DNA of 64,000 nt from an uncultured Chitinophagaceae bacterium (GCA_964543705.1 CAZIZP010000005.1:1612-65611), one strand, 5' to 3'. Counted from the first letter of the stretch, positions 3 to 48,855 are shown. Notes: generated by a model not told the origin, from the letters alone. Translations and numbers: made by a program.

Positions 3-3000
3 ACTTTCCCTACTACTATTACTATTCTCAATGGGCAAACTACAGGGACTTTAACTTTTAATATTGCCGATGATAATGTAGCCGAAAGTACCGAAACAGC
101 AACATTTACTATTAGCAACCCAAGCGCAGGTATTGTGCTAGGCACACCCCTAACCAGAAATTTAACTATTACTAATAACCCATTAACCTACATTGAACTT
201 ACTGCCTTAAATGTGCCGGCTACTGAAGATTTTGCAGGTATGGGATCTAATGGTTCCGCTCCAACACCAACAGGTTTTGGTATTCAAGATGGCAATTCCA
301 CTACTATCGCTTCGGCAGTAACCCAACAGGCAAGCAGTGGCACACCTACAGCAGGCGGTGCTTACAACTGGGGGCAATCTACAACCGAAAGAGCATTAGG
401 TTTAATGTTTAGTAGTGGCTATAATAACAAGAGTATTTTAGCTGCAGTGAAGAATAGTACCGGAGGCACAGGTAGCATCTTTGAAATTAAATTTAATTAT
501 GAGCAATACAGAAGAAACTCTGCAACACAAACATTTAAATTACAATATTCAACTTCACTTACCACAGGCTGGGTCGATGTGCCTGGCGGTAATTTTACTA
601 ACATTGCGAGTGGAGGCAGTTTACATAATTTCACTTCTTTAATCGCTTCAGAATATATCGATATACAGTTTACCCCTGCTGCTACAGTAGCCAATAATCA
701 AGTAGTTTATTTCCGTTGGATATTAGATGGCAGCACAAATAGTAGCGGAGTGGGTATTGATGATGTATCTATTGCTTTAGTAACCGTATCGTGCAGCACA
801 CCTACTACACAGATAAGCAATACTAACTTTTCGGGCGTTACACAAAATGCTATAGATTTCAACTTTACTGTAGGCGATGGAAGCAACCGTGTGGTATATA
901 TCAACAGCACCAATAGCTTCACCGCACCTACCGATGGGGCAGCATTGCCTTCGGTAAATACTACCTGGGCTAATAGTGGTCAGCAATTAATTTATAATGG
1001 TAGCGGCAATTCAGCTTCGGTTTCGGGTTTAAGTGCAGGCACCACCTATTACTTCCGCGTATATGAATACAACTGTACAGGCAGCAATACCAAGTTTTTA
1101 AATACTACTACCACTTATAATCAAGCTACCAACATTGCTGCTTCTACAGCAAGTGTTGTGCAGGCAGTAAGTAATTCAGAAGCTAACACTATATCTTCTT
1201 TAGTAAATGGCACAATTGTAAGCAATAGCAATGGAGTGCAGGTGTGGCGTTTCCGCCTATATGATGGTAATGGTATTAGCAATGATGCTGATAATATGCC
1301 TACTATTTATACCGGCTGGACTATCAGGGCTAGTGCCGATAATACTGTTCCTAATTGGAGCACAGCTATAGCAGATAGAAAATTCTTTTTAGGAACAAGT
1401 ACTATTCCAATTACAGGTGGTGGTCTTACTAACCCTAATAATATTCCTTTCCCAATTTCATCTCCATTCATTACCGTTCCTGATGATGGTTTTGTTGATG
1501 TCTACATGCGTATTACTTTAGCAAATCCATTACCCGTAGGCTCTGACGGACAAAAGTTTGGCTTTAGTTTAGTGCCTGCCGATATTACAGTTGCGTCATC
1601 TGCTACAAGTTCTCAGTTGGGAAGTTTTTCGGCTACCAGCAATGGTACAAAAAATATTATTGATGTATTAGCTACTCTAAAATTTATTGATGCGCCTACC
1701 AATGTTGTAATTAATAACAACTTTACTATTACTGTTAGTGCTGTTGATGCCAATGGTAATATAGATCAAAACCAGACAGGAGCTATTACTTTGTCGCAAT
1801 TTACGGGAAGCGGAACGTTTAGCGGAGGTAGTACCCAAAATTTAGTGGGTGGTTCTTACACATGGACAGGTTTAACTTATGATGAGGTAGGAACTTTCCA
1901 GGTAAGAGCACAAGGGGGGGCATTTGCACCTGTTTTTGCAACTATTAATGCTACAAACGATCCATTTCAATTATTTGATGATTTCAATAGAGCGAATAAT
2001 AACATTGTAGGCATTCCAAGCAGTGGAGGTACTACTTTATGGTCTGAAACTGAAACAGGAGATGGCTCAAGAGTAAGAATTTCTAATAACAGACTTATTC
2101 TTTCTAATTGCAATTCAGACGGAAGTAATTCAGGTAATGGATTCGAGCAAGTAGCGTTTGATATGACACCGAAGTATGAAACATTATTTGAGAATGCAAA
2201 TGGCACAATGAACTGGAAGTTCAATATGAGAAGTACAAGGTCGGGCCCATCGGGCTTTAGCATCACTAATACGTATGGTATTGCAGCAGTATTGGGTTGT
2301 GATGAGATCGATTATCAATCTACATCAGCCGATGGTTATGCAGTTATTATTGGCAATACAGGAGCACCTAATCCAGTTAAGTTAATAAGATTTACCAATG
2401 GGCTAAGAAGTAACTCAAACATAACAGATGTTGCGGTATCATCTTACACAGGTGAGACGGGTTACCTAAGCATTAATGTATCTTATAACCCTTGTAACAA
2501 TGAGTGGTCTCTTTGGGTTAGAAACGATGGTAGCGATTTTGCTGATCCTAATGCAGGTTCCTTTGGAAGTGCTTTTACCGGTGTTGATAATACCCATACT
2601 TCAAAAGATCTGAAATATTCAGGATTTGCTTTTCAACATGGTGCTTCATGTTCTGAAATTGTAAGTATTGATAACTTTTATATTCCTAATGCTGGAACAT
2701 TAGTTGCAGGCACTACAGTATGGACCGGAGCATTAAACAATTTATGGCATGTTAGTGATAATTGGTATTGTGGTGTACTACCAAATTCAACAATCAATGC
2801 TGTTATTCCTAATGTAACTAACGCTCCTGAAGTTATAGATTTAAACCCAGGCAATGTAAAAGACGTAATTATCAGTAACAATGCAGAAATTACAATTTTT
2901 GGCGAGTTAAATGTATATGGAAATTTCACTAATAGTGGCGGAATAGTAACAGGGGAAGGCACTTTGTCCTTCAAAGGAAGTTTGCCTCAGTCAATAAATG

Positions 3001-5168
3001 GTAACTTCAGAATAGGCATTTTAGAAATTGACAATAGCAACGGGGTACAATTTGCATTTAATACAAATGCACTTATAGATGAAAAATTAGTATTAAAAAC
3101 TGGTAATTTAAACACCAATAATGGAACTGTTACACTGAAGTCGTCTGCTACCCGCACAGCCTATATTGACGATTTCACTTCAGGATATAACGGTACTATT
3201 ACCACCAACAACAACTTAACCATAGAGCGATATATACCGGTAGTAGCCAACCCGCTTTCGGCAACACCCTTTGCGTACTTGAATCGCTATTTTTATATTG
3301 GCTCTATTACTAACAATATTACTACAGCTTCTAAATGGAATGGGCAATTTAGCTTAAATGCTAATGCTGGCGCCAACAACAGCAATACTGTTACTCCAAA
3401 AACTGATTGCAGCAGAGAAGCGTTGGCACAAGGCAGTCCATTCAGTAACTTATTTGCTTATGATGAAAGCAGAGTACAAGGTGATTGCTACTTAAGAGGG
3501 TGGATACCATTAAATGCTTCTGCTACAATAGAAAGAGGCAAAGGCTATGCAGCACGTATTAACGACCCCGCAATTATTAACTCAAACAGATTATTAAGTG
3601 AAACCGGAAATTACAGTAAACTTCCTGTTACTTTCAACAATCTTAGTATAAGCGCCAATAATAATTCAGCATCATTATACTCCGGACAGTTTGGCACCAA
3701 AGGTCACCATATTATTTCCAACCCATTCTGGGCACCAATAGACTGGAGAGTTGTAGCCACTAATAATGCCTCCGTTTATGGTACTGCTTATAAGTTTAAC
3801 CCTGCAACAGGTAACTTTTTACCATTAAACAATTCAGGAGTAGTGCCTGTGGAAATTGGTACTAATGAAGCAATCATCATATTACCTTTAGATGCTAACC
3901 AAAGCAGCTATAATGTAACCATTCCTGCTACTGCAAGAGTAAACAGCACCAGCAATAGTTTACTTAGACAACAACAGCTTTATCAGTATAAGTTAGAAGT
4001 AAAAGTACAATCGGCAGATAATGAATCGGATAAGGCCTATTTAATATTTGACAATAGCTTTACTGAAACCCATGATAATGGTTTTGATGCTAAAAAAATG
4101 TTTAGCAGCATAGGCGTGCCAAGTATTTACACTAAAGATTTGAATAATGAAAGAAGCAGTATTTTGGCTTTGCCTGAAAATACCCAGCAAACCACTATTC
4201 CTTTAGGTGTAGCTATTGAATACAATGGTAATCATACCTTAACTTTTGAAGGCGTAGAAGATTTTCCGAATACTTCTATTATTTGGTTAGAAGATTTACA
4301 AACAGGAACCATACAGTATTTGAGAAATAATAATACGTATAGCTTCACTGCCAACAAAACAGATAATGCCGATAGGTTCTTATTACACTTTGCGCCTGAG
4401 TTGCTAATTGCTTCCACAGATGCAAACTGCGATAATGAAAACGGAAATATTAACATTACCGAAAGAGGTGGTTTGGAATGGACTTATACTTTAACCGATG
4501 AAAACAGCAATGTGATTACAAACAGCCTAATCAACGGCAGCCAACAAACTATTGGTCAGTTACCAAGTGGTACTTATACATTACAATTAACCAATACTAT
4601 CAGTGGTTATCAAACGGTTGAAGCCGTAACGATAAATCAGGTGGCAACAGTAACAGCCGCTATTAGCATACCAAACGCAACAGTTAATGTAGGCGATATG
4701 GTAACAGTTGATATTAGCAACACCACCGGAGCAACAAATACCAGTGTAGATATGGGCGATGGTACTGTTTACAACAACGAAAGCATCATAAACCACAGTT
4801 ATACTATCGGTGGTAATTATACCATTACAGTAAATGCCAATAACGATAACTGTGCCGATGCTGCAACGCTAAAAGTTGAAGTAATGGATATTGCTACAAG
4901 TATTGCCAATAATAATCAAGACCTTTCGATAGAAGTATATGCTAGCCAAAATAATTTATACATTACCCAACACTTGCAAGAAGGCTCAGTAGATACAAAA
5001 GTAGAAGTGTATAATATGTTGGGGCAAATAGTTGCTTCTGAAACTATTAATGCTCAATACCAGCAGGCATACAGCATTAGTATGAATGATATTGCTAAAG
5101 GCACTTATATAGCCCGCGTAATTGCCAATGGAAAAACTTCATCGAAGCGAATAATTATAAGCGAATAA
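3..5168 (+). CDS. Large secreted cell-surface protein, 5'-partial (Calx-beta-like segment, PKD-like domain, T9SS type-A C-terminal sorting domain)
   Basis: The frame of the listed 135..5168 ORF stays open back to base 3, so the gene starts upstream of the window. The extra N-terminal stretch TFPTTITILNGQTTGTLTFNIADDNVAESTETATFTISNPSAG reads like a Calx-beta repeat. A PKD-like segment is present (DMGDGTVYN...HSYTIGGNYTITV). The C-terminus VEVYNMLGQIV...GTYIARVIANGKTSSKRIIISE is a typical Por/T9SS tail. Confidence 0.75.
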   Translation, partial: TFPTTITILNGQTTGTLTFNIADDNVAESTETATFTISNPSAGIVLGTPLTRNLTITNNPLTYIELTALNVPATEDFAGMGSNGSAPTPTGFGIQDGNSTTIASAVTQQASSGTPTAGGAYNWGQSTTERALGLMFSSGYNNKSILAAVKNSTGGTGSIFEIKFNYEQYRRNSATQTFKLQYSTSLTTGWVDVPGGNFTNIASGGSLHNFTSLIASEYIDIQFTPAATVANNQVVYFRWILDGSTNSSGVGIDDVSIALVTVSCSTPTTQISNTNFSGVTQNAIDFNFTVGDGSNRVVYINSTNSFTAPTDGAALPSVNTTWANSGQQLIYNGSGNSASVSGLSAGTTYYFRVYEYNCTGSNTKFLNTTTTYNQATNIAASTASVVQAVSNSEANTISSLVNGTIVSNSNGVQVWRFRLYDGNGISNDADNMPTIYTGWTIRASADNTVPNWSTAIADRKFFLGTSTIPITGGGLTNPNNIPFPISSPFITVPDDGFVDVYMRITLANPLPVGSDGQKFGFSLVPADITVASSATSSQLGSFSATSNGTKNIIDVLATLKFIDAPTNVVINNNFTITVSAVDANGNIDQNQTGAITLSQFTGSGTFSGGSTQNLVGGSYTWTGLTYDEVGTFQVRAQGGAFAPVFATINATNDPFQLFDDFNRANNNIVGIPSSGGTTLWSETETGDGSRVRISNNRLILSNCNSDGSNSGNGFEQVAFDMTPKYETLFENANGTMNWKFNMRSTRSGPSGFSITNTYGIAAVLGCDEIDYQSTSADGYAVIIGNTGAPNPVKLIRFTNGLRSNSNITDVAVSSYTGETGYLSINVSYNPCNNEWSLWVRNDGSDFADPNAGSFGSAFTGVDNTHTSKDLKYSGFAFQHGASCSEIVSIDNFYIPNAGTLVAGTTVWTGALNNLWHVSDNWYCGVLPNSTINAVIPNVTNAPEVIDLNPGNVKDVIISNNAEITIFGELNVYGNFTNSGGIVTGEGTLSFKGSLPQSINGNFRIGILEIDNSNGVQFAFNTNALIDEKLVLKTGNLNTNNGTVTLKSSATRTAYIDDFTSGYNGTITTNNNLTIERYIPVVANPLSATPFAYLNRYFYIGSITNNITTASKWNGQFSLNANAGANNSNTVTPKTDCSREALAQGSPFSNLFAYDESRVQGDCYLRGWIPLNASATIERGKGYAARINDPAIINSNRLLSETGNYSKLPVTFNNLSISANNNSASLYSGQFGTKGHHIISNPFWAPIDWRVVATNNASVYGTAYKFNPATGNFLPLNNSGVVPVEIGTNEAIIILPLDANQSSYNVTIPATARVNSTSNSLLRQQQLYQYKLEVKVQSADNESDKAYLIFDNSFTETHDNGFDAKKMFSSIGVPSIYTKDLNNERSSILALPENTQQTTIPLGVAIEYNGNHTLTFEGVEDFPNTSIIWLEDLQTGTIQYLRNNNTYSFTANKTDNADRFLLHFAPELLIASTDANCDNENGNINITERGGLEWTYTLTDENSNVITNSLINGSQQTIGQLPSGTYTLQLTNTISGYQTVEAVTINQVATVTAAISIPNATVNVGDMVTVDISNTTGATNTSVDMGDGTVYNNESIINHSYTIGGNYTITVNANNDNCADAATLKVEVMDIATSIANNNQDLSIEVYASQNNLYITQHLQEGSVDTKVEVYNMLGQIVASETINAQYQQAYSISMNDIAKGTYIARVIANGKTSSKRIIISE

Positions 5169-9470: not shown

Positions 9471-10388
9471 ATGGAAAACAAAGTGTATAGTGTTGCTGAA
9501 ATTAATTTCAGCATAGAACATGTGGCAAGCAGGCAAGAGCCAAGAAAAATATTAATGTGCAACCCTGAATACTTCGATATTGTAGATGTGAAAAATGTAC
9601 ACATGGAAGGCAATATTGGAGTGCTTGATAAAGCCCTGGCAAAAAAGCAATGGGAAGATTTAAAAGCCATATATCAATCGTTTGTTACAGAAGGCATTTT
9701 AGAAGAGGTTTATACCATTTCAGGAGGCAAAGATTGTGAAGACATGGTGTTTACTGCCAATCAATCTTTTCCGTGGATACTGAATGACGAAAAGGTAGTA
9801 GTAATGAGCAAAATGCGACATGAAAGTCGCCAAAGAGAAGTGCCTTATTTTGAAACATTTTATAAAAGCAAAGGCTATAAGCTTTTGCACTTGCAAGAAG
9901 CAAAACTTTTCGAAGGCATGGGCGATACTATTCCTCACTATGGTAAAAGACTGTTGTATGGTGGTTACGGACACCGTAGCGATATTACTGCCTATAAAGA
10001 AATATCCACTATGCTTCAGGTGCCTGTAGTTACATTAGAATTGGTAGATGATCGCTTTTACCATCTCGATACTTGTTTTATTCCTGTAAATGAAGAAACG
10101 GTATTGTTGTGTCCTGTAGCATTTAGCAATGATGGTCTTGCAGCACTGAGAAAATTGTTTAAAAACGTAATTGAAGTGCCTGTAGTAGAAGCCGAAACTT
10201 TTTTTGCCCTGAATGCACACTGTATTAACGACCAAAAAACAGGAAAGAAAAAAGCCGTAATACATCCCGGCAGCACCGTTACAAAAAACGCTTTAATTCA
10301 GCATGGTTACGAAGTAATAGAAACTAACACTTCTGAATACATGAAATCAGGAGGTAGTGTGTTTTGTATGAAAATGATGCTGTATTAA
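9471..10388 (+). CDS. Guanidino-group-modifying enzyme superfamily protein (DDAH / CtlX / amidinotransferase-like)
   Basis: About 305 aa. FYHLDTCF motif and a C-terminal catalytic-Cys context, SGGSVFCMKMML. Confidence 0.7.
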   Translation: MENKVYSVAEINFSIEHVASRQEPRKILMCNPEYFDIVDVKNVHMEGNIGVLDKALAKKQWEDLKAIYQSFVTEGILEEVYTISGGKDCEDMVFTANQSFPWILNDEKVVVMSKMRHESRQREVPYFETFYKSKGYKLLHLQEAKLFEGMGDTIPHYGKRLLYGGYGHRSDITAYKEISTMLQVPVVTLELVDDRFYHLDTCFIPVNEETVLLCPVAFSNDGLAALRKLFKNVIEVPVVEAETFFALNAHCINDQKTGKKKAVIHPGSTVTKNALIQHGYEVIETNTSEYMKSGGSVFCMKMMLY

Positions 10389-10412
10389 TTTAGACTAATC
10401 AATCCAAAATAT

Positions 10413-11645
10413 ATGAGTTCAGGAATATTTGTTTCAACAGAAACCGGAAGGCTAAGAAAAGTTATTATGCATTCGCCAGATGATGGTATTGAGGTAGTTA
10501 CGCCCAGCAAAGCATTAGAGTTTTTGTATGACGATATTGTGTACCTGCCTAAAATGCGCGAAGAGCACAAGCTGTTTACTGATATTTTGAAGCATTTCTT
10601 AGGAAAAGAAAATGTTTTAGACACTCAAGACTTGCTCTTACAGTCTATTCAGCACAATACCGATGCAAGGCTTGAAATGATAGACAATATTGCTTATGAA
10701 GAAGATTGCACCGATGAAACCAAACACATTCTAAAAGGGCTTTCGCCTGAAGAATTAATCTACACCCTTTATACAGGGGTGGTACGAAGTTCGCGCAAAC
10801 AGCTTTTTGGCCCTTTGCCAAACAATATTTTTACCCGCGATATAGGCGCAGTGGTAAATGACCACGTAATTATTTGTCAGGCTTCGAAAAGTGCCCGAAC
10901 AAGAGAAAGCATAATGACAAGAATTATTATTTATTACCATCCACAATTTCAGGCCTTAAGAAATGAAAACAGAATAATAGACCTTACTAAAGAAAATGAT
11001 GATGTAACCTTAGAAGGTGGCGACCTAATGATATATGATAAAGATCATTTGCTGGTAGGCTGTAGTGAACGCACTTCACTTAAAGCCCTTGATGTTTTAA
11101 TTGATAAGTTGTTTGAAAAAAATGTGGTTAAAAATGTAGTGTGGATAGAAATTCCTAAAGAGCGCACTTGTATGCATATTGATACTTTATTTACCCAGGT
11201 AAGTAAAGATGAATTTGTAGTTTTTGCACCTTATGTGGCTTCGCCTGAAAAAATGGAAGTAACTTCTTATCATTCAAATGGAAACTCAACCTCTTACAAT
11301 ACTTTATTAGATTTTTTCAAATCGGTAAATCCTAAAACAGATTACATTCTTTGTGGTAATGGTGAATATCCTTTTGATGAAAGAGAGCAATGGACTGATG
11401 GTTGCAATTTGGTTACAGTAAAAGATGGAGTAGCTTTTGCCTATCAAAGAAATTATCGCACTGCTGAAGCATTAAGAAACAGAGGTTATAATGTAGTTGA
11501 TGGACAAACTGTACTCACCGCTTTTGAAAATGGCTTGATAAATCCTGCAACTATTGAAAAAACTATTATAAGGCTTTCTGCAACAGAACTATCAAGGGCA
11601 AGAGGTGGCCCTCACTGTATGACTTTTCCGATATTAAGAGATTAG
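10413..11645 (+). CDS. Arginine deiminase family protein
   Basis: 410 aa. FTRDIG and LEGGD motifs, CMHIDTLF, and a C-terminal GGPHCMTFPILRD catalytic-Cys motif. Confidence 0.75.
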   Translation: MSSGIFVSTETGRLRKVIMHSPDDGIEVVTPSKALEFLYDDIVYLPKMREEHKLFTDILKHFLGKENVLDTQDLLLQSIQHNTDARLEMIDNIAYEEDCTDETKHILKGLSPEELIYTLYTGVVRSSRKQLFGPLPNNIFTRDIGAVVNDHVIICQASKSARTRESIMTRIIIYYHPQFQALRNENRIIDLTKENDDVTLEGGDLMIYDKDHLLVGCSERTSLKALDVLIDKLFEKNVVKNVVWIEIPKERTCMHIDTLFTQVSKDEFVVFAPYVASPEKMEVTSYHSNGNSTSYNTLLDFFKSVNPKTDYILCGNGEYPFDEREQWTDGCNLVTVKDGVAFAYQRNYRTAEALRNRGYNVVDGQTVLTAFENGLINPATIEKTIIRLSATELSRARGGPHCMTFPILRD

Positions 11646-11662: not shown

Positions 11663-11702
11663 AAAAAAGAGGCAATTCATTTAAGAATTAGCCTCTTTTT
11701 TG
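11663..11702. terminator. Bidirectional-looking Rho-independent terminator
   Basis: aaaaaaGAGGC-N17-GCCTCtttttt. It sits between the arginine-deiminase stop and the 3' end of the convergent tRNA. Confidence 0.7.
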
Positions 11703-11775
11703 TTGTCCGACTAGGGGTCGAACCTAGACTCTTCTGGACCAAAACCAGACGTGTTGCCAGTTACACCATCGGACA
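11703..11775 (-). tRNA. tRNA-Gln (anticodon UUG)
   Basis: Folded by hand into a full cloverleaf. Acceptor tgtccga/tcggaca, D stem gtgt/acac, anticodon stem tctgg/ccaga with loop ttTTGgt, T arm ctagg-ttcgacc-cctag, discriminator A. No encoded CCA. Confidence 0.9.
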
Positions 11776-11946: not shown

Positions 11947-12885
11947 GTGGAACTTTCTGTAATTATTCCCATCTATAATGAAAGTACAAATATTAACACC
12001 TTATACGAAAGGCTATCGGCTGTATGCGATAAAATTACAGCAGACAGAGAATTTATTTTTATAAATGATGGAAGTATTGATGATTCATTACAAAAGGTTA
12101 AGGCTTTACATGAAAATGATTCTCGAATAAAATACATCAACTTTAGCAGAAATTTTGGCCACCAAATAGCAGTTACTGCCGGGCTTGACAAATGCAAAGG
12201 CAATGCAATAGTTATTATTGATGCTGACCTTCAAGACCCACCGGAACTAATAGAACAAATGTATCATAAATGGAAACATGAAGATTTTCAGGTGGTTTAT
12301 GCCAAACGCAGAAGAAGAAAAGGTGAAAGTTTTTTAAAGCTGTTAACGGCTAAAATGTTTTACAGAATTTTAAGCAGTATTACATCCGTATCCATCCCTG
12401 TTGATACGGGAGATTTCAGACTTATTGACAAAAAAATTGTTTCTTATTTAAAGCAGATGCCAGAACAACAAAAGTTTCTTCGTGGGCAAATTTCATGGAT
12501 AGGGTTTAACCAAACCTATATTGAATATGACCGAGACGAGCGTTATGGCGGCAAAACAGGCTATACGTACAGAAAAATGATTCGGTTTGCATTAGACGGC
12601 ATTACTTCATTTTCTGATTTTCCTTTAAAGTTTGCAACTTTAGCAGGCTTTTTTGTTTCAGCAGTAGCATTTATTATTATTCTTTATTCAATTTACCAAC
12701 GATATTTTGGAGATAATTACCAAACCGGTTGGGCATCATTGATGATTTCTATATTGTTTTTAGGCGGAATTCAGCTAATAGGCATTGGCATAATAGGCGA
12801 ATATATAAGCAGAATTAGTAAGAACGTAAAGCAACGACCACTTTACATCATAGCCGACAGTAATGTTGAGGAAAAAAGTAACTAG
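11947..12885 (+). CDS. GT2 polyprenyl-phosphate glycosyltransferase (GtrB/ArnC/DPM1-like)
   Basis: GTG start. Motifs SVIIPIYNE, FINDGSID, FSRNFGHQ and IDADLQDPPE, with two C-terminal TM helices. Confidence 0.85.
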   Translation: MELSVIIPIYNESTNINTLYERLSAVCDKITADREFIFINDGSIDDSLQKVKALHENDSRIKYINFSRNFGHQIAVTAGLDKCKGNAIVIIDADLQDPPELIEQMYHKWKHEDFQVVYAKRRRRKGESFLKLLTAKMFYRILSSITSVSIPVDTGDFRLIDKKIVSYLKQMPEQQKFLRGQISWIGFNQTYIEYDRDERYGGKTGYTYRKMIRFALDGITSFSDFPLKFATLAGFFVSAVAFIIILYSIYQRYFGDNYQTGWASLMISILFLGGIQLIGIGIIGEYISRISKNVKQRPLYIIADSNVEEKSN

Positions 12886-13590
12886 TTATTTTTTTCTTGC
12901 AATTAATAATACCGATTTACCTACATTGTAGCCCGTAAGCCAGTCGGTAATTTTTGAAATCGGCACCATAAAATTGTCCCACAGTTTTATTTGCGAAATT
13001 TTCGGGTACGATTGTTTCAGCAAAAGTTTTTGTGCCAAAGAGGCAGTTAGCCCTACACTATCTAAATACAAGGCTCTTTCAATAATTAATGTTGATGGAA
13101 TAACTACTTTAAGTTGTTTTCGAGAATACCTTCTGTAATGCCCTATAGATTTATCGAAATTACTGTATAAATACTGATGAGCAGGTACAACAATAGCTAA
13201 TACGCCACCGCTTTTCAAATGTTCAGAAGCTACAAGCAATTCGGCTTTATCATCCTTAATATGCTCAATTACATCAATATATATAATAGCATCAGCTTGT
13301 TTATTTTTTACATCGCTTAAAACACCACACATACTTTTGCAGCAAGAAGGCAATTCTTTGTTATTTATCATTGCCACAACATGTTGTTCCAGACGGCTAT
13401 CGGGTTCAATGCAAAGCCATTCACTTTGTGTTCCGCTACAAAGATGCTTGGTGGTGCCACCAATGCCTGCTCCCACTTCTATCACCGTTCCTTTTAAGTG
13501 AGGCTTAATAAACGAACCATAATATTGTTTCCAGTTTTCAGCAAACTGAAACAACTCTAATTCACCACCTATATATGACTGGTTTTCCAT
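12886..13590 (-). CDS. Class I SAM-dependent methyltransferase
   Basis: Motif I VIEVGAGIGGTT, followed by a DVIEH post-I region. Confidence 0.8.
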   Translation of the reverse strand: MENQSYIGGELELFQFAENWKQYYGSFIKPHLKGTVIEVGAGIGGTTKHLCSGTQSEWLCIEPDSRLEQHVVAMINNKELPSCCKSMCGVLSDVKNKQADAIIYIDVIEHIKDDKAELLVASEHLKSGGVLAIVVPAHQYLYSNFDKSIGHYRRYSRKQLKVVIPSTLIIERALYLDSVGLTASLAQKLLLKQSYPKISQIKLWDNFMVPISKITDWLTGYNVGKSVLLIARKK

Positions 13591-14522
13591 TATTTTGAAG
13601 CTACTGATTGTATAAAATGCTTGTACTCGTAGGCAGGAATTATTTGTTTATTGCTACGATAAGACAACACCATAAAAACTAAAAATAAAAACACTAGCAA
13701 TGCTTGAAAAGACATAATGGCCAATGCTAAAACCGTAAATGTGGCCCAGCCGGGAATAGCCCAGTCGGTAAATAATCTTATTCCGGTAACAGCTACTATT
13801 CCTGAAATAGCAACCCCTAAAAAAATTAAACTGTAGAGTATCAATCTTATAGAAACCGTTTCGATATATACTGAAATAGCACTTAAACCATGAAGAATTA
13901 ACGAATTGAAATTCATTTTCGAGTTGCCGGCCAGCCTAATTCCTTTTTCAATTGGCGCTGTGGTGTAAGCAACTTTTGAGCGAATAACTGCACTGGCAAA
14001 ATGATTCCAAATTTCCGGAACAAAAACTATTTTTTTTACCGTTTCAAAGTTCAGCAAACAAAAATTACCAAAGTTGATGGGGTTGCCCGTAAGTCTTTTA
14101 AATAAGAATTTATAAACTGCGTAAAACAATTTAAACACTAAGCCTTCTTTACGTTTGGTGCGTTGTGCAAAAACCACTTTGTTGCTATTAGCTTCTTGCT
14201 TCTGAATTAATTTTATAATGTCTTCAGGAACATCTTCTCCGTCAGAATCCATTACAATTACCTTGTCGCAGGTTTCATTTTCAGCAATATAAGAAAGCCC
14301 AATAGCAATAGCACGCTGATGCCCCATGTTTCGGTTTAAATGAATAATAGAAATTTGCTGAAGACTTTCTTCCGATGCAGGTTGTGTAGAAAAATCATTT
14401 ACGGCAAATATTCTGAAGCTGTCATTTGGTAGTTGTTTACTGAAAAACGTACTGATTTTTTCATGCAACAATCTCAGGCATTCCCAATCGTTAAAAACAG
14501 GTATCAGAATAATGTAATTCAT
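13590..14522 (-). CDS. GT2 polyprenyl-phosphate glycosyltransferase (second GtrB-like paralog)
   Basis: Motifs ILIPVFND, NRNMGHQRA and VMDSDGEDVPEDI, with C-terminal TM helices. Start moved to the internal MNYIIL (14522) because a TAnnTTTG box overlaps the longer ORF start. Confidence 0.8.
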   Translation of the reverse strand: MNYIILIPVFNDWECLRLLHEKISTFFSKQLPNDSFRIFAVNDFSTQPASEESLQQISIIHLNRNMGHQRAIAIGLSYIAENETCDKVIVMDSDGEDVPEDIIKLIQKQEANSNKVVFAQRTKRKEGLVFKLFYAVYKFLFKRLTGNPINFGNFCLLNFETVKKIVFVPEIWNHFASAVIRSKVAYTTAPIEKGIRLAGNSKMNFNSLILHGLSAISVYIETVSIRLILYSLIFLGVAISGIVAVTGIRLFTDWAIPGWATFTVLALAIMSFQALLVFLFLVFMVLSYRSNKQIIPAYEYKHFIQSVASK

Positions 14523-14528
14523 GCACGC

Positions 14529-14536
14529 CAAAAATA
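14529..14536 (-). promoter_or_regulatory. Candidate -7 box (TAnnTTTG)
   Basis: Minus strand reads TATTTTTG, 6 nt upstream of the ATG at 14522, which implies a near-leaderless transcript. Confidence 0.35.
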
Positions 14537-14589
14537 GTTAAAAGCTATTTGCCATTAATGTTTATTTAAAAATACTACCTGCCAAAGGT

Positions 14590-16575
14590 TTGTTAACTTC
14601 ACGAAAATTTTTTCAAACCATGTTTTCAGCTATTAACGAATCGGTTTTTAAAAAAGCATTTTGGGTTAGCGCTTTTGTAATGGTTGCTACTATGCTTTGG
14701 GTTTGCAACGACTATGGCATTACCGGAGATGAAACGCACCTGAATGCTTACAATAAGGCAGTAGTAAATTGGTATGCTACAGGCGGCAAAGACACTACTT
14801 GCCTTAATATGCCTGTGTTTCACGATAAAGACAGGGTATTAAAATATTATGGTGCGGGTTTTGAGTTAATGGCTGCTTTAGCTAAAAAGGTTTTGCCTGT
14901 AGAGGAATATCATGCACGCAGAATTACCAATGCTTTATTTGGTTTTGCGGCAATTATTTTCACCGGACTAATTGCCTTGCGCTTAGGGGGTTGGCGCATG
15001 GCATTAATTGCACAGTGGATTATTTTTCTCTCTCCGAGATTTTTCGGACACTCGATGAATAATCCCAAGGATATTCCTTTTGCAGCCACATCGGCATTTG
15101 CTGTTTGGGCCATGATGATATTTTTCGATAATCTTAAAAAGCTAAACTACAATCATGTTTTGTTAACAGGCCTGGCAATTGCAAGCGCTATTAATATTCG
15201 ATTCGGAGGGTTATTATTGTTTGGCTATTTCGGCTTGTTTTTGTTGATAGAAATTATTGCTACTGAAAATGGTATTGGTAAAATTCTTAGCAACCCATTT
15301 GAAAAATTGAAGCCTTATGTGTTGCCTTCTATAGCAACAATAGCGGTTGGTTATTTCTGTGGTGTTTTAATGTGGCCGTTTGGCTTGCTTAATCCTATTA
15401 TGCATCCATTAGAGCCATTGAAAAAATTTGGAAACTTAGATGTAAGTCTGCGGCAGGTATTTGAAGGTGAATTTTTTATGAGTGCCGACTTGCCTTGGTA
15501 TTACCTGCCTAAAATGATTGGTATTACAACGCCCTTGGTATTTATTATCGGCTTTGTAATAGCGTTCCCATTATTTTGGTTGGTAAGAAAACAATTTCCG
15601 AGTAGAAGAGTGTTGCTTGTATTATTTGCAGCATTGTTTCCGGTGTTTTACATTATTTACACTAATGCCAATATTTTTCATGAATGGAGGCATACTTATT
15701 TTGCGTATCCGCCATTAGTAGTAATAGCTGCTTTAGGTTGGGAAAGTTTATTCAGAATACTAAAAACAAAAGTGCCGCAGTTCGCTGCAATTTCAGCTTT
15801 CACAGTTTTACTATTGATGCCTTTGGGTTGGTTTGTAAATGCTCATCCGCATCAGTATTTATATTATAATGAATTGATTGGCGGGCTAAAAAATGCTAAA
15901 GGAAACTATATTTTAGACTATTGGATGAACAGCATTAAAGAAGCCTATGAATGGACAATTGCCAATGCTGAAATGCCGGAAGGAAGACCATTAATAATAA
16001 CCACAACTGCCCACCCTCAAGTTATAGTATATAATGAGGGAAAGGAAGATAAATTTGAAATTCATTATGCCCGATATTATCAGCGTTATGAGAAAGATTG
16101 GGATTATGGTTTGTTTTATGCAGATTTTATTAGTCCTTCTCAATTAAAAAACCCTAATACTTGGCCGCCAGATGGAACTGTGCATGTCGTAAAGGCTGGT
16201 GATGTTCCTATTTGTGCCGTAATTAAACGAACAGACAAATCTGATTTAAAAGGCTTTACTGCTATGAACGAAGGCAACATTTCTGAAGCCATAAAATATT
16301 TTGAACAAGCCATAAAAAGTTATCCGAATAGTGAAATAATACATACTAGTTTAGGTATAGCTTATTTGAATGTTGGCAAGTTTAATGAAGGCATAAATGC
16401 TTTAGTAAAAGGAATTCAATTGTATCCTGAAAATGCACAAGCCTATTTTTATTTGGGTTATGCTTATGCTATTCAAGGTAACAGAAATAATGCAGGCATC
16501 TATTTACAAAAGGCAGTAAATCTTAACCCCGGTTATGGACAACAGGCACAAGATATAATGAGCAAAATGCGATAG
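14590..16575 (+). CDS. GT-C fold membrane glycosyltransferase (ArnT/PMT-like) with C-terminal TPR repeats
   Basis: About 12 predicted TM segments. First-loop acidic motif YGITGDETH resembles the PMT/ArnT DE motif. The soluble C-terminal 100 aa holds TPRs (AIKYFEQAIKSYPNS..., AYFYLGYAYAIQGNRNNA...). The start (TTG 14590 or ATG 14620) is uncertain. Confidence 0.75.
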   Translation: MLTSRKFFQTMFSAINESVFKKAFWVSAFVMVATMLWVCNDYGITGDETHLNAYNKAVVNWYATGGKDTTCLNMPVFHDKDRVLKYYGAGFELMAALAKKVLPVEEYHARRITNALFGFAAIIFTGLIALRLGGWRMALIAQWIIFLSPRFFGHSMNNPKDIPFAATSAFAVWAMMIFFDNLKKLNYNHVLLTGLAIASAINIRFGGLLLFGYFGLFLLIEIIATENGIGKILSNPFEKLKPYVLPSIATIAVGYFCGVLMWPFGLLNPIMHPLEPLKKFGNLDVSLRQVFEGEFFMSADLPWYYLPKMIGITTPLVFIIGFVIAFPLFWLVRKQFPSRRVLLVLFAALFPVFYIIYTNANIFHEWRHTYFAYPPLVVIAALGWESLFRILKTKVPQFAAISAFTVLLLMPLGWFVNAHPHQYLYYNELIGGLKNAKGNYILDYWMNSIKEAYEWTIANAEMPEGRPLIITTTAHPQVIVYNEGKEDKFEIHYARYYQRYEKDWDYGLFYADFISPSQLKNPNTWPPDGTVHVVKAGDVPICAVIKRTDKSDLKGFTAMNEGNISEAIKYFEQAIKSYPNSEIIHTSLGIAYLNVGKFNEGINALVKGIQLYPENAQAYFYLGYAYAIQGNRNNAGIYLQKAVNLNPGYGQQAQDIMSKMR

Positions 16576-16656: not shown

Positions 16657-18153
16657 ATGAGAAGCCTGCTCATCATTTTAGGATTAATTTCAACTTATGC
16701 CCCTGCATTTGCTCAGGCATTGTTTTATAACAATGGCGCACAAATGTTTATGAATCCCGGTTCGGTAATGATAGTGAAAAACGCTTCGGTAGATAACAAT
16801 ACCGGAAGAATTGATAACGCTGGAAACCTTATTGTTGAAGGCGATTTTACTAATAGCGATTTGGCAACAGGCAATGCCAACTCAACCGGCATTTATGATA
16901 TTTACGGCAACTGGATAAACAATGCCAACTTTTCTGCCGATGAAAGCACTGTTCAGTTAAGTGGTGTAAATCAATTAATTACCGGCAATCAAAAAACCAC
17001 CTTTTACAATTTGTTTTTAGTAGGTAATGGCATTAAAACTCAAACTATAGATGCGCAAGTTGATGGTACTTTAGATCTAAGAGATGCTGAATTGGCAACC
17101 GATATATATGAAATGTTTGTTGCTAATGCTAGCCCAAATGCTATAGTTCGTGTTAACTCAGGCTTTGTAAGCAGTTTACAAAATGGAAAACTTTCGCGAA
17201 ACACTAACAGTACTGATAGCTATTTATTTCCTACAGGATCTTCATTAGGCACTCCTCGATATCGTCCCGTTACAATTATTCCAAATACTACAAATAATAA
17301 TACTTACGGAGTAAGACATGCCAATGTCACCGCTACAGCCGAAAGCTATGATGTTAATGTTTTGTCTGACGAATTATGCGAAGTAAATCCATTATACTAT
17401 CATAGATTACACAGAACTGCCGGAGCAGATGCCGCTACTGTTTCTTTTTTCTACGATAATGTTGCCGATGGAGATTGGGCTACTATTGCCAATTGGCAAA
17501 ATAATTCGCAGTGGGAAGATATTGGCCCTGCAACAGCTTCTATTGCTTCGGGCTTTGATGTTTTAACTATTGGCAACTGGAATAATTTCAGCAATATACC
17601 TTATGCCTTGGCAAAACCAGCACCAACCGTTGTTGCAGAAAGAGATACTCAAATTTTATTAGGCGATGAAGCCTCTTTGACCGCCACTGCAAGTCAAAAT
17701 GTAAACACCTACACGTGGTTTCCGTCAAACGATTTAAGTTGTGCCGATTGTCCTAACCCCATTGCTTCTCCGGAAAAAACCACTTTATATACGGTTACTG
17801 TAAATCAAGGTTCGGGTTGTAGTGCTACCGATTCGGTATTGGTTGAAGTAATTGCCAATTTGAATTTATATCTGCCGAATGCTTTTTCGCCTAATAGCGA
17901 TGGCAATAACGATATACTAAAACTTTATGGCGATACCGATAGAATTTTTACTTTAAACCTGAAAATTTTCAATCGCTGGGGCGAAAAAGTGTTTGAAGCC
18001 ACCGATATTGAAACGGCAGTAAACGGCTGGGACGGCACTTATATGGGTAAACTGCTCGACCCCGGAGTATTTGCTTATCAAATGGCTGTAACTTACAAGA
18101 GAGGCATTAAAGACCCCTTAAAGCAAAAGGGTAGTATTGCATTAATTAGATAA
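16657..18153 (+). CDS. Secreted protein with T9SS type-B (gliding-motility-associated CHU_C) C-terminal domain
   Basis: Signal peptide ending AFAQ. C-terminus LPNAFSPNSDGNNDILKLYG...IFNRWGEKVFE...WDGTY...GVFAY. Confidence 0.8.
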   Translation: MRSLLIILGLISTYAPAFAQALFYNNGAQMFMNPGSVMIVKNASVDNNTGRIDNAGNLIVEGDFTNSDLATGNANSTGIYDIYGNWINNANFSADESTVQLSGVNQLITGNQKTTFYNLFLVGNGIKTQTIDAQVDGTLDLRDAELATDIYEMFVANASPNAIVRVNSGFVSSLQNGKLSRNTNSTDSYLFPTGSSLGTPRYRPVTIIPNTTNNNTYGVRHANVTATAESYDVNVLSDELCEVNPLYYHRLHRTAGADAATVSFFYDNVADGDWATIANWQNNSQWEDIGPATASIASGFDVLTIGNWNNFSNIPYALAKPAPTVVAERDTQILLGDEASLTATASQNVNTYTWFPSNDLSCADCPNPIASPEKTTLYTVTVNQGSGCSATDSVLVEVIANLNLYLPNAFSPNSDGNNDILKLYGDTDRIFTLNLKIFNRWGEKVFEATDIETAVNGWDGTYMGKLLDPGVFAYQMAVTYKRGIKDPLKQKGSIALIR

Positions 18154-26668: not shown

Positions 26669-27055
26669 ATGTCTTTTTTAAGGTTTCATTTTTTCACCTT
26701 ACTTTGGGCTGGTATAATAATACTAATGTCTTTTTATCCAGGAAAAGATTTACCAAAAGTAGATTTTTGGCAGTTGCTTACATTTGATAAGTTTATGCAC
26801 ATAAGCTGTTACATGCTGCTTTTTTTCTTAATGAATGTTGGCGGAATGAAGCAATATGGTTATCAGATAAAAAGATACAGGATTACCGGAATTACGTTTA
26901 CAACCTGCATTTTTTATGGCATTTTGGTCGAAATATTGCAGCCAATTTTATCTGAAGACCGTTTTTTTGATTTTTTTGACATATTTGCTAATACAATAGG
27001 TTGTATATTCGGCATATTTCTTTTTAAATTTGTTTACTCTAAAAGTTTGAACTAA
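26669..27055 (+). CDS. VanZ-like membrane protein
   Basis: 128 aa with four TM helices and a DKFMH motif. Confidence 0.65.
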   Translation: MSFLRFHFFTLLWAGIIILMSFYPGKDLPKVDFWQLLTFDKFMHISCYMLLFFLMNVGGMKQYGYQIKRYRITGITFTTCIFYGILVEILQPILSEDRFFDFFDIFANTIGCIFGIFLFKFVYSKSLN

Positions 27056-41536: not shown

Positions 41537-41656
41537 AGCAGTTGGTTTAATTGTTAATGTTGAATTTACATTTTTTTTACCGATAGTTTGCATCACAGGT
41601 TCAGGTTAAATTTTGCTGCACATTAAAGCGTAAATTCGCTTACAAATTTTACAGCA

Positions 41657-48845: not shown

Positions 48846-48855
48846 TATGATAGTT

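What the first reader, a model, noticed from the sequence alone, without database searches (positions are those of the whole stretch)
11947..16575. Divergent glycosylation module: two GtrB/ArnC-like GT2s, a methyltransferase and a GT-C enzyme with C-terminal TPRs
Seen in sequence: the gene order is GT2 (+), SAM-MT (-), GT2 (-), GT-C-TPR (+). Intergenic gaps are 0-60 bp, and a shared divergent promoter region lies at 14523-14589. Both GT2s have the DxD/QDPPE-type catalytic core plus C-terminal TM helices, typical of polyprenyl-phosphate-sugar synthases. The 661-aa GT-C has a DETH first-loop motif and ends in a periplasm-facing TPR array. Established knowledge: in Gtr (GtrA/B/C) and Arn (ArnC/ArnT) systems, a GT2 loads a sugar on undecaprenyl phosphate and a GT-C transfers it outside the cytoplasm. 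In eukaryotes, GT-C enzymes with C-terminal TPRs (the TMTC family) are protein O-mannosyltransferases. Inference: this could be a lipid-carrier-dependent periplasmic glycosylation system whose TPR domain selects protein substrates, possibly with a methylated sugar. Two donor synthases suggest two different sugars. No GtrA-like flippase gene is evident.
Basis: partly seen in the sequence, partly recalled or inferred. Interest (0 to 1): 0.6.

Follow-up and report, generated by a model that had tools for sequence, protein, structure and literature searches.

The report
Periplasmic sugar-adding system with TPR enzyme
This Bacteroidota locus encodes two enzymes that load sugars onto a membrane lipid carrier, a methyltransferase, and a large uncharacterised membrane glycosyltransferase with a protein-binding TPR tail that most likely attaches those sugars outside the cytoplasm; the kind of system is known, but this enzyme family and its methyltransferase partner have not been studied.

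Summary
The four genes are present as described. GT2a (11947-12885,+) is a close GtrB relative. GT2b (13590-14522,-) and the SAM methyltransferase MT (12886-13590,-) form one operon. The 651-661 aa protein (14620/14590-16575,+) has a GT-C fold (AlphaFold pLDDT 94): 11 TM helices, an invariant GDE in the first outer loop, an alpha/beta domain and three C-terminal TPRs. It is a very divergent PMT_2-superfamily member. It is neither an ArnT nor a TMTC.

Comparative genomics supports a lipid-carrier-dependent periplasmic system:
- Across 84 loci, the GT-C-TPR family sits beside or is fused to a GT2 in 41. The synthase type varies: GtrB-like (sometimes with GtrA), soluble or fused GT2, or a UbiA/PRPP-type synthase plus HAD phosphatase.
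- MT relatives are the second most frequent neighbour (21 of 84 loci).
- In metagenomes, GT2-MT followed by a GT-C of variable family is a conserved operon.

I found no description of a methyltransferase component in the literature I could search. In the closest relatives the MT-GT2b pair is absent, so the exact four-gene set is lineage-specific. The window contains no GtrA. The acceptor was not determined; the TPRs make a protein acceptor plausible. Verdict: a new variant of a known kind, of moderate interest.

The parts
11947..12885 (+). GT2a: GtrB-type polyprenyl-phosphate hexosyltransferase. GT-A catalytic domain with DADLQDPPE at aa 92-100 and two C-terminal TM helices.
   Evidence: PF00535 6.5e-33. 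E=2.8e-93 to GtrB sll0501, 5EKP. NCBIfam PgfS 268 bits and ArnC 159 bits, both below the equivalog cut-offs. TM helices. Motif. Orthologues lie next to the GT-C in syntenic relatives L084 and L085.
12886..13590 (-). MT: cytoplasmic class I SAM-dependent methyltransferase. It is translationally coupled to GT2b: GT2b's stop and MT's start overlap in TAATG.
   Evidence: Methyltransf_23/12/11. AF2 pLDDT 93 with a generic small-molecule MT fold. No TM helix. Overlap. The family lies directly downstream of a 2-TM GT2 in about 47 of 58 metagenome loci.
13590..14522 (-). GT2b: second polyprenyl-phosphate glycosyltransferase-type GT2. It has DSDGEDVPE and two C-terminal TM helices and is 24% identical to GT2a. 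The longest ORF extends to the TTG at 14531.
   Evidence: PF00535 8e-13. GtrB/ArnC E~1e-12 over residues 5-278. TM helices. Comparison with GT2a. Large multi-phylum family that JGI labels polyisoprenyl-phosphate glycosyltransferase. Called start.
14523..14619 (.). Divergent intergenic region between GT2b and the GT-C: 97 bp, 30% GC. Presumed promoter region; not demonstrated.
   Evidence: Sequence and motif scan. No enrichment of promoter- or terminator-like sites.
14620..15840 (+). GT-C catalytic membrane core: 11 TM helices and a first outer loop (aa 32-95) carrying the invariant G33, G36, D37, E38 (nt 14728-14733 encode D-E). Conserved periplasmic motifs SPRFxGxSxNNPKD and WRH. An alternative TTG start lies at 14590.
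   Evidence: AF2 pLDDT 94.3, pTM 0.92. Foldseek to STT3, ArnT, PglB, ALG9/12 and Pmt4 at E 2.5e-7 to 1.4e-4. PMT_2 matches 52 of 57 family members. Invariant columns.
15841..16239 (+). Periplasmic alpha/beta domain (aa 408-540) between TM11 and the TPRs. No Pfam match.
   Evidence: AF2 secondary structure. Conserved columns Y415, N417, G422, D433, Y434, D495, Y496.
16240..16575 (+). C-terminal TPR module: seven helices, which make three TPRs plus a cap. Inferred to be periplasmic.
   Evidence: TPR_1/2/8/16 hits. Consensus-TPR structures at 1.1-1.4 A rmsd. Topology argument.

Best explanation
The locus encodes a Gtr/Arn-type extracytoplasmic glycosylation system.

Proposed mechanism:
1. On the cytoplasmic face of the inner membrane, GT2a (a GtrB orthologue) and GT2b each transfer a monosaccharide from a nucleotide sugar to polyprenyl (undecaprenyl) phosphate.
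2. The soluble SAM methyltransferase, co-translated with GT2b, most likely methylates GT2b's sugar while it is still accessible in the cytoplasm, either as the lipid-linked sugar or as its precursor.
3. The lipid-linked sugars are flipped by a flippase that is not encoded in the window.
4. The 11-TM GT-C enzyme transfers them in the periplasm, using the conserved Asp-Glu of its first outer loop.
5. Its periplasmic alpha/beta domain and three TPRs position the acceptor. I judge a periplasmic or secreted protein the most likely acceptor, by analogy with TMTC and PMT-type O-glycosylation.

What is shown and what is inferred:
- Shown by sequence, structure prediction and comparative genomics: the gene identities, the GT-C fold, the topology logic, and the recurrent linkage of this GT-C family with polyprenyl-P-sugar synthases and with the MT.
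- Inferred: the sugar identities, the MT's substrate, the flippase, and the acceptor.

My confidence is about 0.8 for the lipid-carrier-dependent periplasmic transferase core, about 0.45 for a protein acceptor, and about 0.4 for methylation of the donor sugar.
For: Gene identities.

GT-C fold and catalytic loop:
- AF2 pLDDT 94.3 with 11 TM helices.
- Foldseek E 2.5e-7 to 1.4e-4 to STT3, ArnT, PglB, ALG9/12 and Pmt4.
- PMT_2 matches 52 of 57 family members and PMT matches 19 of 57.
- Invariant D37 and near-invariant E38.

Topology:
- Twelve natural fusions place a nucleotide-sugar-using GT2 domain directly before TM1. The N-terminus is therefore cytoplasmic, and 11 TM helices put the TPRs outside.
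- Short loops carry 13 K+R on the inside and 4 on the outside.

Coupling to lipid-linked donors (unbiased neighbour clustering of 84 loci from different species):
- GT2 is the top neighbour: 31 loci, 22 of them at position -1 on the same strand, plus 12 fusions. The union is 41 of 84.
- A true GtrA (PF04138, E~1e-12) lies between the GtrB-like GT2 and the GT-C in L005 and L047, and directly upstream of the GT-C in L072, whose contig ends before any GT2 would appear. GtrA occurs in 10 loci in all.
- A Bacteroidales subgroup instead has HAD phosphatase + UbiA/decaprenyl-P phosphoribosyltransferase-like + GT-C-TPR. This matches the pentofuranose three-component system of PMC11127046.

MT linkage:
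- MT relatives are the second most frequent neighbour (21 of 84 loci).
- The window-type MT profile's 20 best hits among 2,140 ORFs are exactly the GT-C-adjacent ones.
- In metagenomes the window-type MT lies directly after a 2-TM GT2 in about 47 of 58 loci.
- It is followed or flanked by a polytopic protein of at least 7 TM in 32 of 39 loci. Those proteins are PMT_2, GT87, YfhO or DUF6311.

Synteny and close relatives:
- GT2a, GT-C, CHU_C, DUF5686 and IleRS are conserved in L084.
- In at least four close relatives, GT-C, GT2b and MT share contigs.

Protein acceptor (analogy only):
- TPRs are conserved in 53 of 57 members.
- TMTCs share the 11-TM, N-in, TPR-out layout (PMC7801869).
- Streptococcal GtrB/GT-C pairs O-glycosylate proteins (PMC12041528).
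Against: - There is no biochemical or glycoproteomic evidence, and the acceptor is completely untested.
- The window protein scores below the PMT_2 gathering threshold. A family profile finds no solved GT-C by sequence, so catalytic competence rests on the fold and on conserved acidic residues.
- No flippase gene is present in the window.
- The MT-GT2b pair is missing from the nearest syntenic relatives, so it may serve another GT-C elsewhere in the genome.
- MTs beside distant family members are only 22-27% identical to the window MT.
- The MT fold does not discriminate between substrates.
- Periplasmic TPRs also occur in polysaccharide-export scaffolds, so TPRs do not prove a protein substrate.
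- Neighbouring PASTA and T9SS proteins show no Ser/Thr-rich tracts.
- T9SS cargo genes are frequent here (4 in the window), so their adjacency to the GT-C is uninformative.
- The positive-inside bias is modest.
Confidence: 0.6

Rival explanations
1. The machinery is the same, but the acceptor is a glycan or glycolipid: LPS core or O-antigen, lipid A, capsule, or the outer part of an already attached O-glycan. This would resemble the serotype-specific Gtr GT-Cs (written Gtr* in PMC11127046) or ArnT. The TPRs would then dock the enzyme to an assembly or export machine rather than to a substrate protein.
For: - Most characterised bacterial three-component systems decorate glycans or lipid A (PMC11127046 and references).
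- The donor module varies between lineages: GtrB-like, soluble GT2, or PRPP/UbiA type. That is typical of variable surface-glycan decoration.
- One GT2b-MT pair (L092) sits inside an ABC-transporter-type glycan cluster next to a PMT_2 protein.
- Foldseek matches ArnT about as well as it matches the protein transferases.
Against: - The family profile has no sequence relationship to ArnT.
- The window holds no LPS or O-antigen genes beside the locus.
- To my knowledge, the glycosyltransferases known to carry TPRs (OGT, SPY, TMTC) all act on proteins.
- Pfam's nearest families are PMT_2 and PMT.
Confidence: 0.35
2. The clustering in this window is partly coincidental. GT2a works with the GT-C-TPR. 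The GT2b-MT cassette is an independent insertion that feeds a different GT-C encoded elsewhere in the genome.
For: - The syntenic relatives L084 and L085 have GT2a and the GT-C but no GT2b-MT.
- Elsewhere GT2b-MT pairs with other GT-C families: PMT_2, GT87, YfhO, DUF6311.
- GT2b or MT can also occur alone.
Against: - The cassette is inserted exactly between GT2a and the GT-C, and shares the divergent intergenic region with the GT-C.
- MT relatives flank this GT-C family in 20 other species in several arrangements.
- In 32 of 39 metagenome loci the GT2-MT pair has a polytopic protein of at least 7 TM within two genes; the representatives checked belong to GT-C families. In the window the only such neighbour is the TPR enzyme.
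Confidence: 0.15
3. The GT-C-TPR protein is catalytically inactive, or acts as a transporter or scaffold rather than a glycosyltransferase.
For: - The window protein is below the Pfam threshold.
- It has no sequence-level match to any solved GT-C.
Against: - The acidic pair in the first loop and several periplasmic-loop motifs are strictly conserved across more than 150 clusters at 50% identity.
- The AF2 model has a confident GT-C fold.
- Linkage and fusion to sugar-donor synthases persist across species.
Confidence: 0.04

Closest known systems
Gtr three-component O-antigen glucosylation systems (GtrA flippase, GtrB Und-P-Glc synthase, serotype-specific GT-C)
   Same: GT2a is a close GtrB relative (E=2.8e-93 to the solved GtrB). 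Related loci show the canonical order GtrB, GtrA, GT-C, with this family in the GT-C position.
   Different: The window has no GtrA. The GT-C carries an alpha/beta domain and TPRs that, to my knowledge, the Gtr GT-Cs lack. A second synthase and a methyltransferase are present. The acceptor is unknown.
TMTC1-4, the eukaryotic ER protein O-mannosyltransferases (GT-C plus C-terminal TPRs)
   Same: 11 TM helices, cytoplasmic N-terminus, TPRs on the extracytoplasmic side, and membership of the PMT/ArnT-like clan (PMC7801869).
   Different: No DUF1736 signature in the TM7-8 loop. Only 3 TPRs, preceded by a 130-aa alpha/beta domain. No detectable direct sequence relationship.
PMT/Ppm1 protein O-mannosylation (fungi, Actinobacteria)
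   Same: Acidic D-E pair in the first outer loop, 11 TM helices, and weak PMT_2/PMT Pfam hits. Some family members have a polyprenyl-P-sugar synthase fused to the membrane protein.
   Different: To my knowledge PMTs carry a MIR domain, which is absent here. Identity to the solved Pmt4 is about 12%. GT2a is GtrB-like rather than Ppm1/DPM1-like (5MLZ only 5.7e-12).
ArnC/ArnT lipid A aminoarabinose modification
   Same: A GT2 with two C-terminal TM helices (ArnC E~1e-38 for GT2a) working with a GT-C. The fold matches ArnT 5EZM at E=3e-6.
   Different: The family profile does not detect ArnT by sequence. No ArnA/B/D-type genes were seen among the annotated window genes. ArnT has 13 TM helices (PMC7801869) and, to my knowledge, no TPRs.
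Streptococcal GtrB/PgtC2 and PgfS/PgfM1 protein O-glycosylation
   Same: A GtrB-type synthase plus a GT-C glycosylating extracytoplasmic proteins (PMC12041528). PgfS is the best NCBIfam model for GT2a (268 bits, below the cut-off of 500).
   Different: Those GT-Cs belong to the YfhO family and come from Gram-positive bacteria. That paper does not describe TPRs or a methyltransferase.
Pentofuranose three-component systems (UbiA-type polyprenyl-P phosphoribosyltransferase + HAD phosphatase + GT-C; PMC11127046)
   Same: A Bacteroidales branch of this GT-C-TPR family lies directly after HAD, MT-like and UbiA/DPPRS-like genes.
   Different: The window uses GT2 synthases instead. The published systems decorate O-antigens, and the paper mentions no TPR or MT component.

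Membership tests
GT-C fold glycosyltransferase superfamily | Polytopic membrane core with a long first extracytoplasmic loop carrying conserved acidic catalytic residue(s), and overall fold similarity to solved GT-Cs. | tested here: met
   AF2 pLDDT 94.3 with 11 TM helices and an EL1 of about 64 aa. Foldseek E 2.5e-7 to 1.4e-4 to STT3, ArnT, PglB, ALG9/12 and Pmt4. D37 is invariant and E38 at least 90% conserved.
GT-C fold glycosyltransferase superfamily | Uses a polyprenyl-phosphate-linked sugar donor. | not testable with these tools
   Supported only by gene linkage and fusion to GtrB-like, soluble GT2 and UbiA-type synthases.
Pfam PMT_2 (PF13231; the GT39/GT83-type clan) | Score at or above the Pfam gathering threshold of 26.1 bits. 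| tested here: not met
   The window protein scores 19.9 bits, E=9e-4. 52 of 57 family members match at E<0.01, best 8.7e-9. The family is a divergent relative, and the window protein itself is sub-threshold.
TMTC family | DUF1736 signature in the TM7-TM8 lumenal loop. | tested here: not met
   The window protein has no DUF1736 hit at E<=0.01. DUF1736 is not among the 25 families matched by the most family members.
TMTC family | 11 TM helices, cytoplasmic N-terminus, and a C-terminal TPR array on the extracytoplasmic side. | tested here: met
   11 helices. N-terminal GT2 fusions fix the N-terminus in the cytoplasm. There are only three TPRs and they are separated from TM11 by an alpha/beta domain. 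The sidedness is inferred, not measured.
ArnT (lipid A L-Ara4N transferase) | Sequence-level homology to ArnT. | tested here: not met
   The TPR-free family profile against all PDB sequences detects no ArnT (best E 0.9, unrelated proteins). There is only fold-level similarity, at 12-14% identity.
Gtr-type three-component system | GtrB-type polyprenyl-P-hexose synthase: GT-A domain with DXD plus two C-terminal TM helices. | tested here: met
   GT2a matches 5EKP at E=2.8e-93 over residues 1-304. Motif and TM helices.
Gtr-type three-component system | GtrA-family flippase encoded with the system. | tested here: not met
   The GtrA HMM gives no hit in any window ORF of at least 70 aa. GtrA is present in 10 of 84 related loci. 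None was found within four genes of the MT in 39 GT2-MT metagenome loci.
Gtr-type three-component system | GT-C enzyme genetically linked to the synthase. | tested here: met
   GT2 is adjacent or fused in 41 of 84 loci. Synteny of GT2a with the GT-C holds in L084 and L085.
Class I SAM-dependent methyltransferase (MT) | Rossmann-type SAM-binding fold with the GxGxG motif. | tested here: met
   Methyltransf_23/12/11 hits. Invariant E38-G40-A41-G42-G44. AF2 pLDDT 93. Foldseek E~1e-14 to class I MTs. Substrate not determined.

The most novel reading that the evidence does not exclude
This Bacteroidota-wide GT-C-TPR family is the bacterial counterpart of TMTC/PMT enzymes. On this reading it is the still-undiscovered protein-directed transferase of the phylum's general O-glycosylation pathway. 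It would place the first hexose on Ser/Thr directly from undecaprenyl-P-hexose rather than by an en-bloc oligosaccharyltransferase. The linked methyltransferase would create methylated lipid-linked sugar donors, a step not described for any three-component system.
Probability: 0.08. Interest if true: 0.9.

Novelty: new variant of a known kind. Interest (0 to 1): 0.55.

Why it matters
Extracytoplasmic glycosylation by a polyprenyl-P-sugar synthase, a flippase and a GT-C is a known principle. Three things here are uncharacterised.

1. The GT-C family. It is large (more than 150 clusters at 50% identity, at least 590 species genomes) and, among the loci and named homologues examined, comes only from Bacteroidota. 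It carries periplasmic TPRs. Databases label it only 'TPR repeat protein', 'hypothetical' or 'GT39'.
2. The fusions. The family is repeatedly fused to its own donor synthase, which gives a clean natural topology marker.
3. The methyltransferase. A conserved SAM methyltransferase is wedged between the synthase and GT-Cs of several families (PMT_2, GT87, YfhO, DUF6311). This suggests that methylated lipid-linked sugars are a widespread and undescribed donor class.

The 2025 review of Bacteroidota O-glycosylation (PMC12871550) states that the OTase, the ligase and the core machinery are undiscovered. It explicitly recommends looking for homologues of the eukaryotic O-mannosylation system. This family is a concrete, testable candidate of that type, or at least a candidate for adding the methylated sugars common in these glycans.

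Tried and rejected
- The TPR-free family profile against PDB sequences found nothing.
- Acceptor leads did not hold up. CHU_C and Por_Secre_tail (T9SS cargo) genes flank the GT-C in the window and in about 19 other loci. However, cargo genes are abundant (4 in this window), and the 11 Bacteroidales cases are syntenic and so not independent. I rejected this as evidence.
- The PASTA-domain neighbour, examined by analogy with glycosylated streptococcal PASTA proteins, has no Ser/Thr-rich tract.
- The MT structure search gave only generic class I MT matches.
- Promoter and terminator scans did not exceed the shuffle expectation. A single TAnnTTTG motif is within chance.
- Small polytopic ORFs near GT2-MT cassettes and in the window turned out to be VanZ, DUF2721 or exosortase-like proteins, or had no match. 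None is a recognisable flippase.
- I could not name the organism.
- The counts at loose thresholds in the 1.84-billion-protein search are inflated by TPR matches. I did not use them as a measure of family size.

Full report
**1. Observation**

GT2a (11947-12885, +, 312 aa) has a family-2 glycosyltransferase domain (PF00535, 6.5e-33). It matches the crystallised polyisoprenyl-phosphate glucosyltransferase GtrB of Synechocystis (sll0501, 5EKP) at E=2.8e-93 over residues 1-304. It matches ArnC at about 1e-38. It carries DADLQDPPE at residues 92-100 and two C-terminal TM helices.

GT2b (13590-14522 by the public gene call; the longest ORF runs to 14531) has the same architecture: DSDGEDVPE and two C-terminal TM helices. 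It is distant from GT2a, at 24% identity, with PF00535 8e-13 and GtrB/ArnC about 1e-12.

MT (12886-13590, -) is a soluble class I SAM methyltransferase.

GT2b's stop codon and MT's start codon overlap in TAATG, so the two genes form one operon. GT2a and MT converge with no base between their stop codons.

The GT-C ORF spans 14590-16575. Public gene calls start it at the ATG at 14620, giving 651 aa. The divergent intergenic region is then 14523-14619.

Nothing shows that this region is a promoter. One Bacteroidota-type TAnnTTTG lies upstream of GT2b, but the motif occurs about once per kb. The sigma-70 and terminator scans do not exceed the shuffle expectation.

**2. The GT-C enzyme**

With a 57-sequence family alignment, AlphaFold gives a very confident model (pLDDT 94.3, pTM 0.92). 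It has four parts:
- eleven TM helices;
- a mixed alpha/beta domain (aa 408-540);
- seven helices that form three TPRs plus a cap (aa 541-650).

Foldseek against the PDB returns GT-C enzymes of several families. These are STT3/OST (2.5e-7), ArnT (3e-6), ALG12, ALG9, PglB and Pmt4. All are at 10-14% identity with TM-scores of 0.4-0.57. The fold is GT-C, but no solved family is close.

At the sequence level the window protein is below the PMT_2 gathering threshold, at 19.9 against 26.1 bits. However, 52 of 57 family members hit PMT_2 and 19 hit PMT. No DUF1736 (TMTC) or DUF2723 (TMEM260) hit appears.

A TPR-free family profile finds no solved GT-C at all, ArnT included.

**3. Topology**

Three lines of evidence bear on sidedness:
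- GT-C enzymes place the first-loop acidic residues and the C-terminal soluble domain outside the cytoplasm.
- The helix count is odd (11), the same as reported for TMTCs (PMC7801869).
- Natural fusions exist. Twelve of the 84 family loci examined, and several database proteins such as P0019 and P0050, have a nucleotide-sugar-dependent GT2 domain fused directly before TM1.

Such a GT2 domain must be cytoplasmic. That fixes the N-terminus inside and, with 11 TM helices, puts the TPRs outside.

The positive-inside rule agrees, though only moderately: 13 K+R in short inner loops against 4 in outer loops. The periplasmic location is a well-supported inference, not a measurement.

**4. Family size and annotation**

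The family is large:
- More than 1,000 word-sharing homologues, and every hit that carries an organism name is from Bacteroidota.
These include cultured Runella species.
- All 150 best 50%-identity cluster representatives match essentially full-length at E<=1e-199. About 70 of them carry an N-terminal extension of roughly 150-300 aa.

Public names are only 'hypothetical', 'TPR repeat protein' or 'glycosyltransferase family 39'.

**5. Co-conservation around the GT-C**

I clustered all ORFs within three genes of the GT-C in 84 loci, without prior labels.

GT2 is the most frequent neighbour. It is present in 31 loci, in 22 of them at position -1 on the same strand. Adding the 12 true fusions gives a GT2 next to or fused with the GT-C in 41 of 84 loci.

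Three kinds of donor module occur:
- (a) A GtrB-like GT2 with two TM helices, which is the GT2a type (16 loci). A genuine GtrA flippase (PF04138, about 1e-12) lies between it and the GT-C in L005 and L047, giving the textbook GtrB-GtrA-GT-C order. In L072, whose contig ends before any GT2 would appear, GtrA lies directly upstream of the GT-C.
- (b) A short soluble GT2, either separate or fused.
- (c) In a Bacteroidales subgroup, a HAD phosphatase and a UbiA-family decaprenyl-phosphate phosphoribosyltransferase-like protein. This is the donor module of the pentofuranose three-component systems (PMC11127046).

One GT-C family pairing with three unrelated ways of making polyprenyl-monophosphate sugars is strong evidence that it uses such donors.

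**6. The methyltransferase**

The second most frequent neighbour cluster (21 of 84 loci) contains the window's MT.

These MTs are only 22-27% identical to the window's MT. The relationship is nevertheless specific. A profile of the window-type MT family ranks exactly the 20 GT-C-adjacent MTs as its top 20 hits among 2,140 ORFs in the 83 loci, at E 1e-19 to 1e-5.

The reverse search gives the same picture. I scanned metagenomes with the window-type MT family:
- The MT lies directly downstream of a two-TM GT2 in about 47 of 58 loci with enough upstream sequence. The GT2 is GT2b-type in 27 and GtrB-like in about 20.
- In 32 of 39 loci of at least 6 kb, a polytopic protein of at least 7 TM lies within two genes, usually immediately downstream.
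- Those polytopic proteins belong to different GT-C families: PMT_2, GT87, YfhO and the uncharacterised DUF6311.

GT2-MT-GT-C is thus a conserved operon type in which the GT-C family is interchangeable. In the window, the adjacent GT-C is the TPR-bearing one.

I found no paper describing a methyltransferase as part of such systems, and none mentioning DUF6311.

The MT's fold is a generic small-molecule class I MT. Sugar O-methyltransferases (RebM, AtmM) and prenyl-diphosphate C-methyltransferases are among its matches. The fold is compatible with a lipid-linked-sugar substrate but does not prove it.

From my own knowledge, the archaeal AglP methylates a dolichol-phosphate-linked glycan in the cytoplasm. 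That is a precedent for the idea.

**7. What is not conserved**

The exact four-gene set is lineage-specific:
- Very close relatives (85-100% identity) keep GT-C, GT2b and MT on the same contigs.
- The syntenic relatives at 50-55% identity (L084, L085) keep GT2a, the GT-C, the CHU_C protein, DUF5686 and IleRS. They carry an amine-oxidase-like flavoprotein where the window has MT-GT2b.
- A 67% relative has the GT-C alone, next to lpxD.
- About half of all family loci, all the Runella loci among them, have no GT2 within three genes.
- GT2b or MT homologues can also stand alone.

The window therefore combines the ancestral GT2a/GT-C pair of its clade with an inserted GT2b-MT donor cassette.

No GtrA homologue or other recognisable flippase is present anywhere in the 64-kb window. 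None accompanies the GT2-MT cassettes either.

**8. Mechanism proposed**

- GT2a and GT2b load two sugars onto undecaprenyl phosphate at the cytoplasmic face. GT2a's sugar is probably a hexose such as Glc or an HexNAc, judging only by its GtrB/PgfS similarity.
- The MT methylates GT2b's sugar before export (inference).
- An unlinked flippase moves the donors across the membrane.
- The GT-C transfers them in the periplasm using D37/E38.

The acceptor is open. I favour a protein at about 0.45. To my knowledge, the glycosyltransferases known to carry TPRs (OGT, SPY, TMTC) use them for protein substrates. The nearest Pfam families are protein mannosyltransferases. Bacterial GtrB/GT-C pairs that O-glycosylate proteins are now documented (PMC12041528).

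A glycan or LPS acceptor is almost as likely, at about 0.35. Donor-module variability is typical of surface-glycan decoration.

My acceptor leads from gene neighbourhood (T9SS cargo, PASTA protein) did not hold up.

**9. Relation to open questions**

The 2025 review of Bacteroidota protein O-glycosylation (PMC12871550) makes four relevant points:
- the OTase, the ligase and the core-glycan flippase 'remain undiscovered';
- the conserved core begins with a hexose (mannose);
- the glycans are commonly methylated, at an unknown biosynthetic stage;

The GT-C-TPR family is such a homologue. Its variable donor modules, including a pentofuranose type, and its apparently patchy linkage argue against a single conserved core function. 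I give that reading only about 8%. A role in adding (methyl-)sugars to O-glycans or glycoproteins in the periplasm is more plausible.

**10. Verdict**

- Correct: the system type and the topology.
- Wrong in detail: co-conservation of the exact four genes, and TMTC-family membership.
- Untested: the protein substrate, the methyl-sugar and the two-sugar ideas.

This is a new variant of a known kind of system, of moderate interest. The most useful new leads are the uncharacterised Bacteroidota GT-C-TPR family and the conserved GT2-MT-GT-C operon.

Noticed in passing
L005:9305-10000, L017:3837-4590, L006, L010, L038, L079 (related loci): Many long members of the GT-C-TPR family (about 70 of the 150 best cluster representatives) carry an N-terminal extension of roughly 150-300 aa. 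Only some are recognisable GT2 domains. Others have no Pfam hit, and two (L016, L045) score weakly as GT2 (E~1e-5). The extension may be a degenerate GT2 domain or a new cytoplasmic domain.
   Followed up: partly
L084:6685-7998 and L085:3171-4478: In syntenic relatives an Amino_oxidase/NAD_binding_8 flavoprotein (435-437 aa) lies directly after the GT2a orthologue, where the window has MT-GT2b. It might be a sugar-modifying oxidoreductase or a mutase-like enzyme.
   Followed up: partly
L102:7721-10246, L108:7693-9891 and 12 further metagenome loci: DUF6311 (PF19830) proteins of 720-850 aa with about 10 TM helices follow GT2-MT pairs directly in 14 loci. They are probably an unrecognised GT-C family. 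No paper in the library mentions DUF6311.
   Followed up: partly
L039:7624-13126 (also L008, L023, L041, L068): A Bacteroidales operon reads HAD phosphatase, MT-like, UbiA/decaprenyl-P phosphoribosyltransferase-like, GT-C-TPR. It is followed by a PASTA-domain membrane protein and a Por_Secre_tail (T9SS) protein. It looks like a pentofuranose version of the system.
   Followed up: partly
window 9471-11645: Two adjacent amidinotransferase-fold paralogues. One is DDAH/arginine-dihydrolase-like (305 aa). The other is arginine-deiminase-like (410 aa). Both score below the NCBIfam equivalog cut-offs.
   Followed up: no
window 11702-11775 (-): A tRNA-Gln (anticodon TTG) lies between the arginine-deiminase-like gene and GT2a, just upstream of the glycosylation locus.
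   Followed up: no
window 135-5168, 16657-18153, 39410-41596, 45503-48568: There are four T9SS cargo genes (Por_Secre_tail or CHU_C C-terminal domains) in 64 kb. One is a 1677-aa PKD protein and one is a DUF4397-repeat protein. Their density makes adjacency to the GT-C uninformative.
   Followed up: yes
window 12883-12888: GT2a and MT converge with their stop codons abutting (0 bp) and no terminator-like hairpin between them. The convergent transcripts must overlap or terminate inside the opposing gene.
   Followed up: partly
window 48832-50835: A 667-aa protein with N-terminal TPRs and a C-terminal OmpA peptidoglycan-binding domain. Also a VanZ-like 4-TM protein at 26669-27055.
   Followed up: no
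L022:8319-9776, L019:8448-9158, L069:8530-9342, L070:12893-13705: Additional weakly MT-like ORFs (E 1e-4 to 7e-3 against the window-type MT profile) lie directly beside GT-C-TPR genes, sometimes as a second MT in tandem.
   Followed up: no
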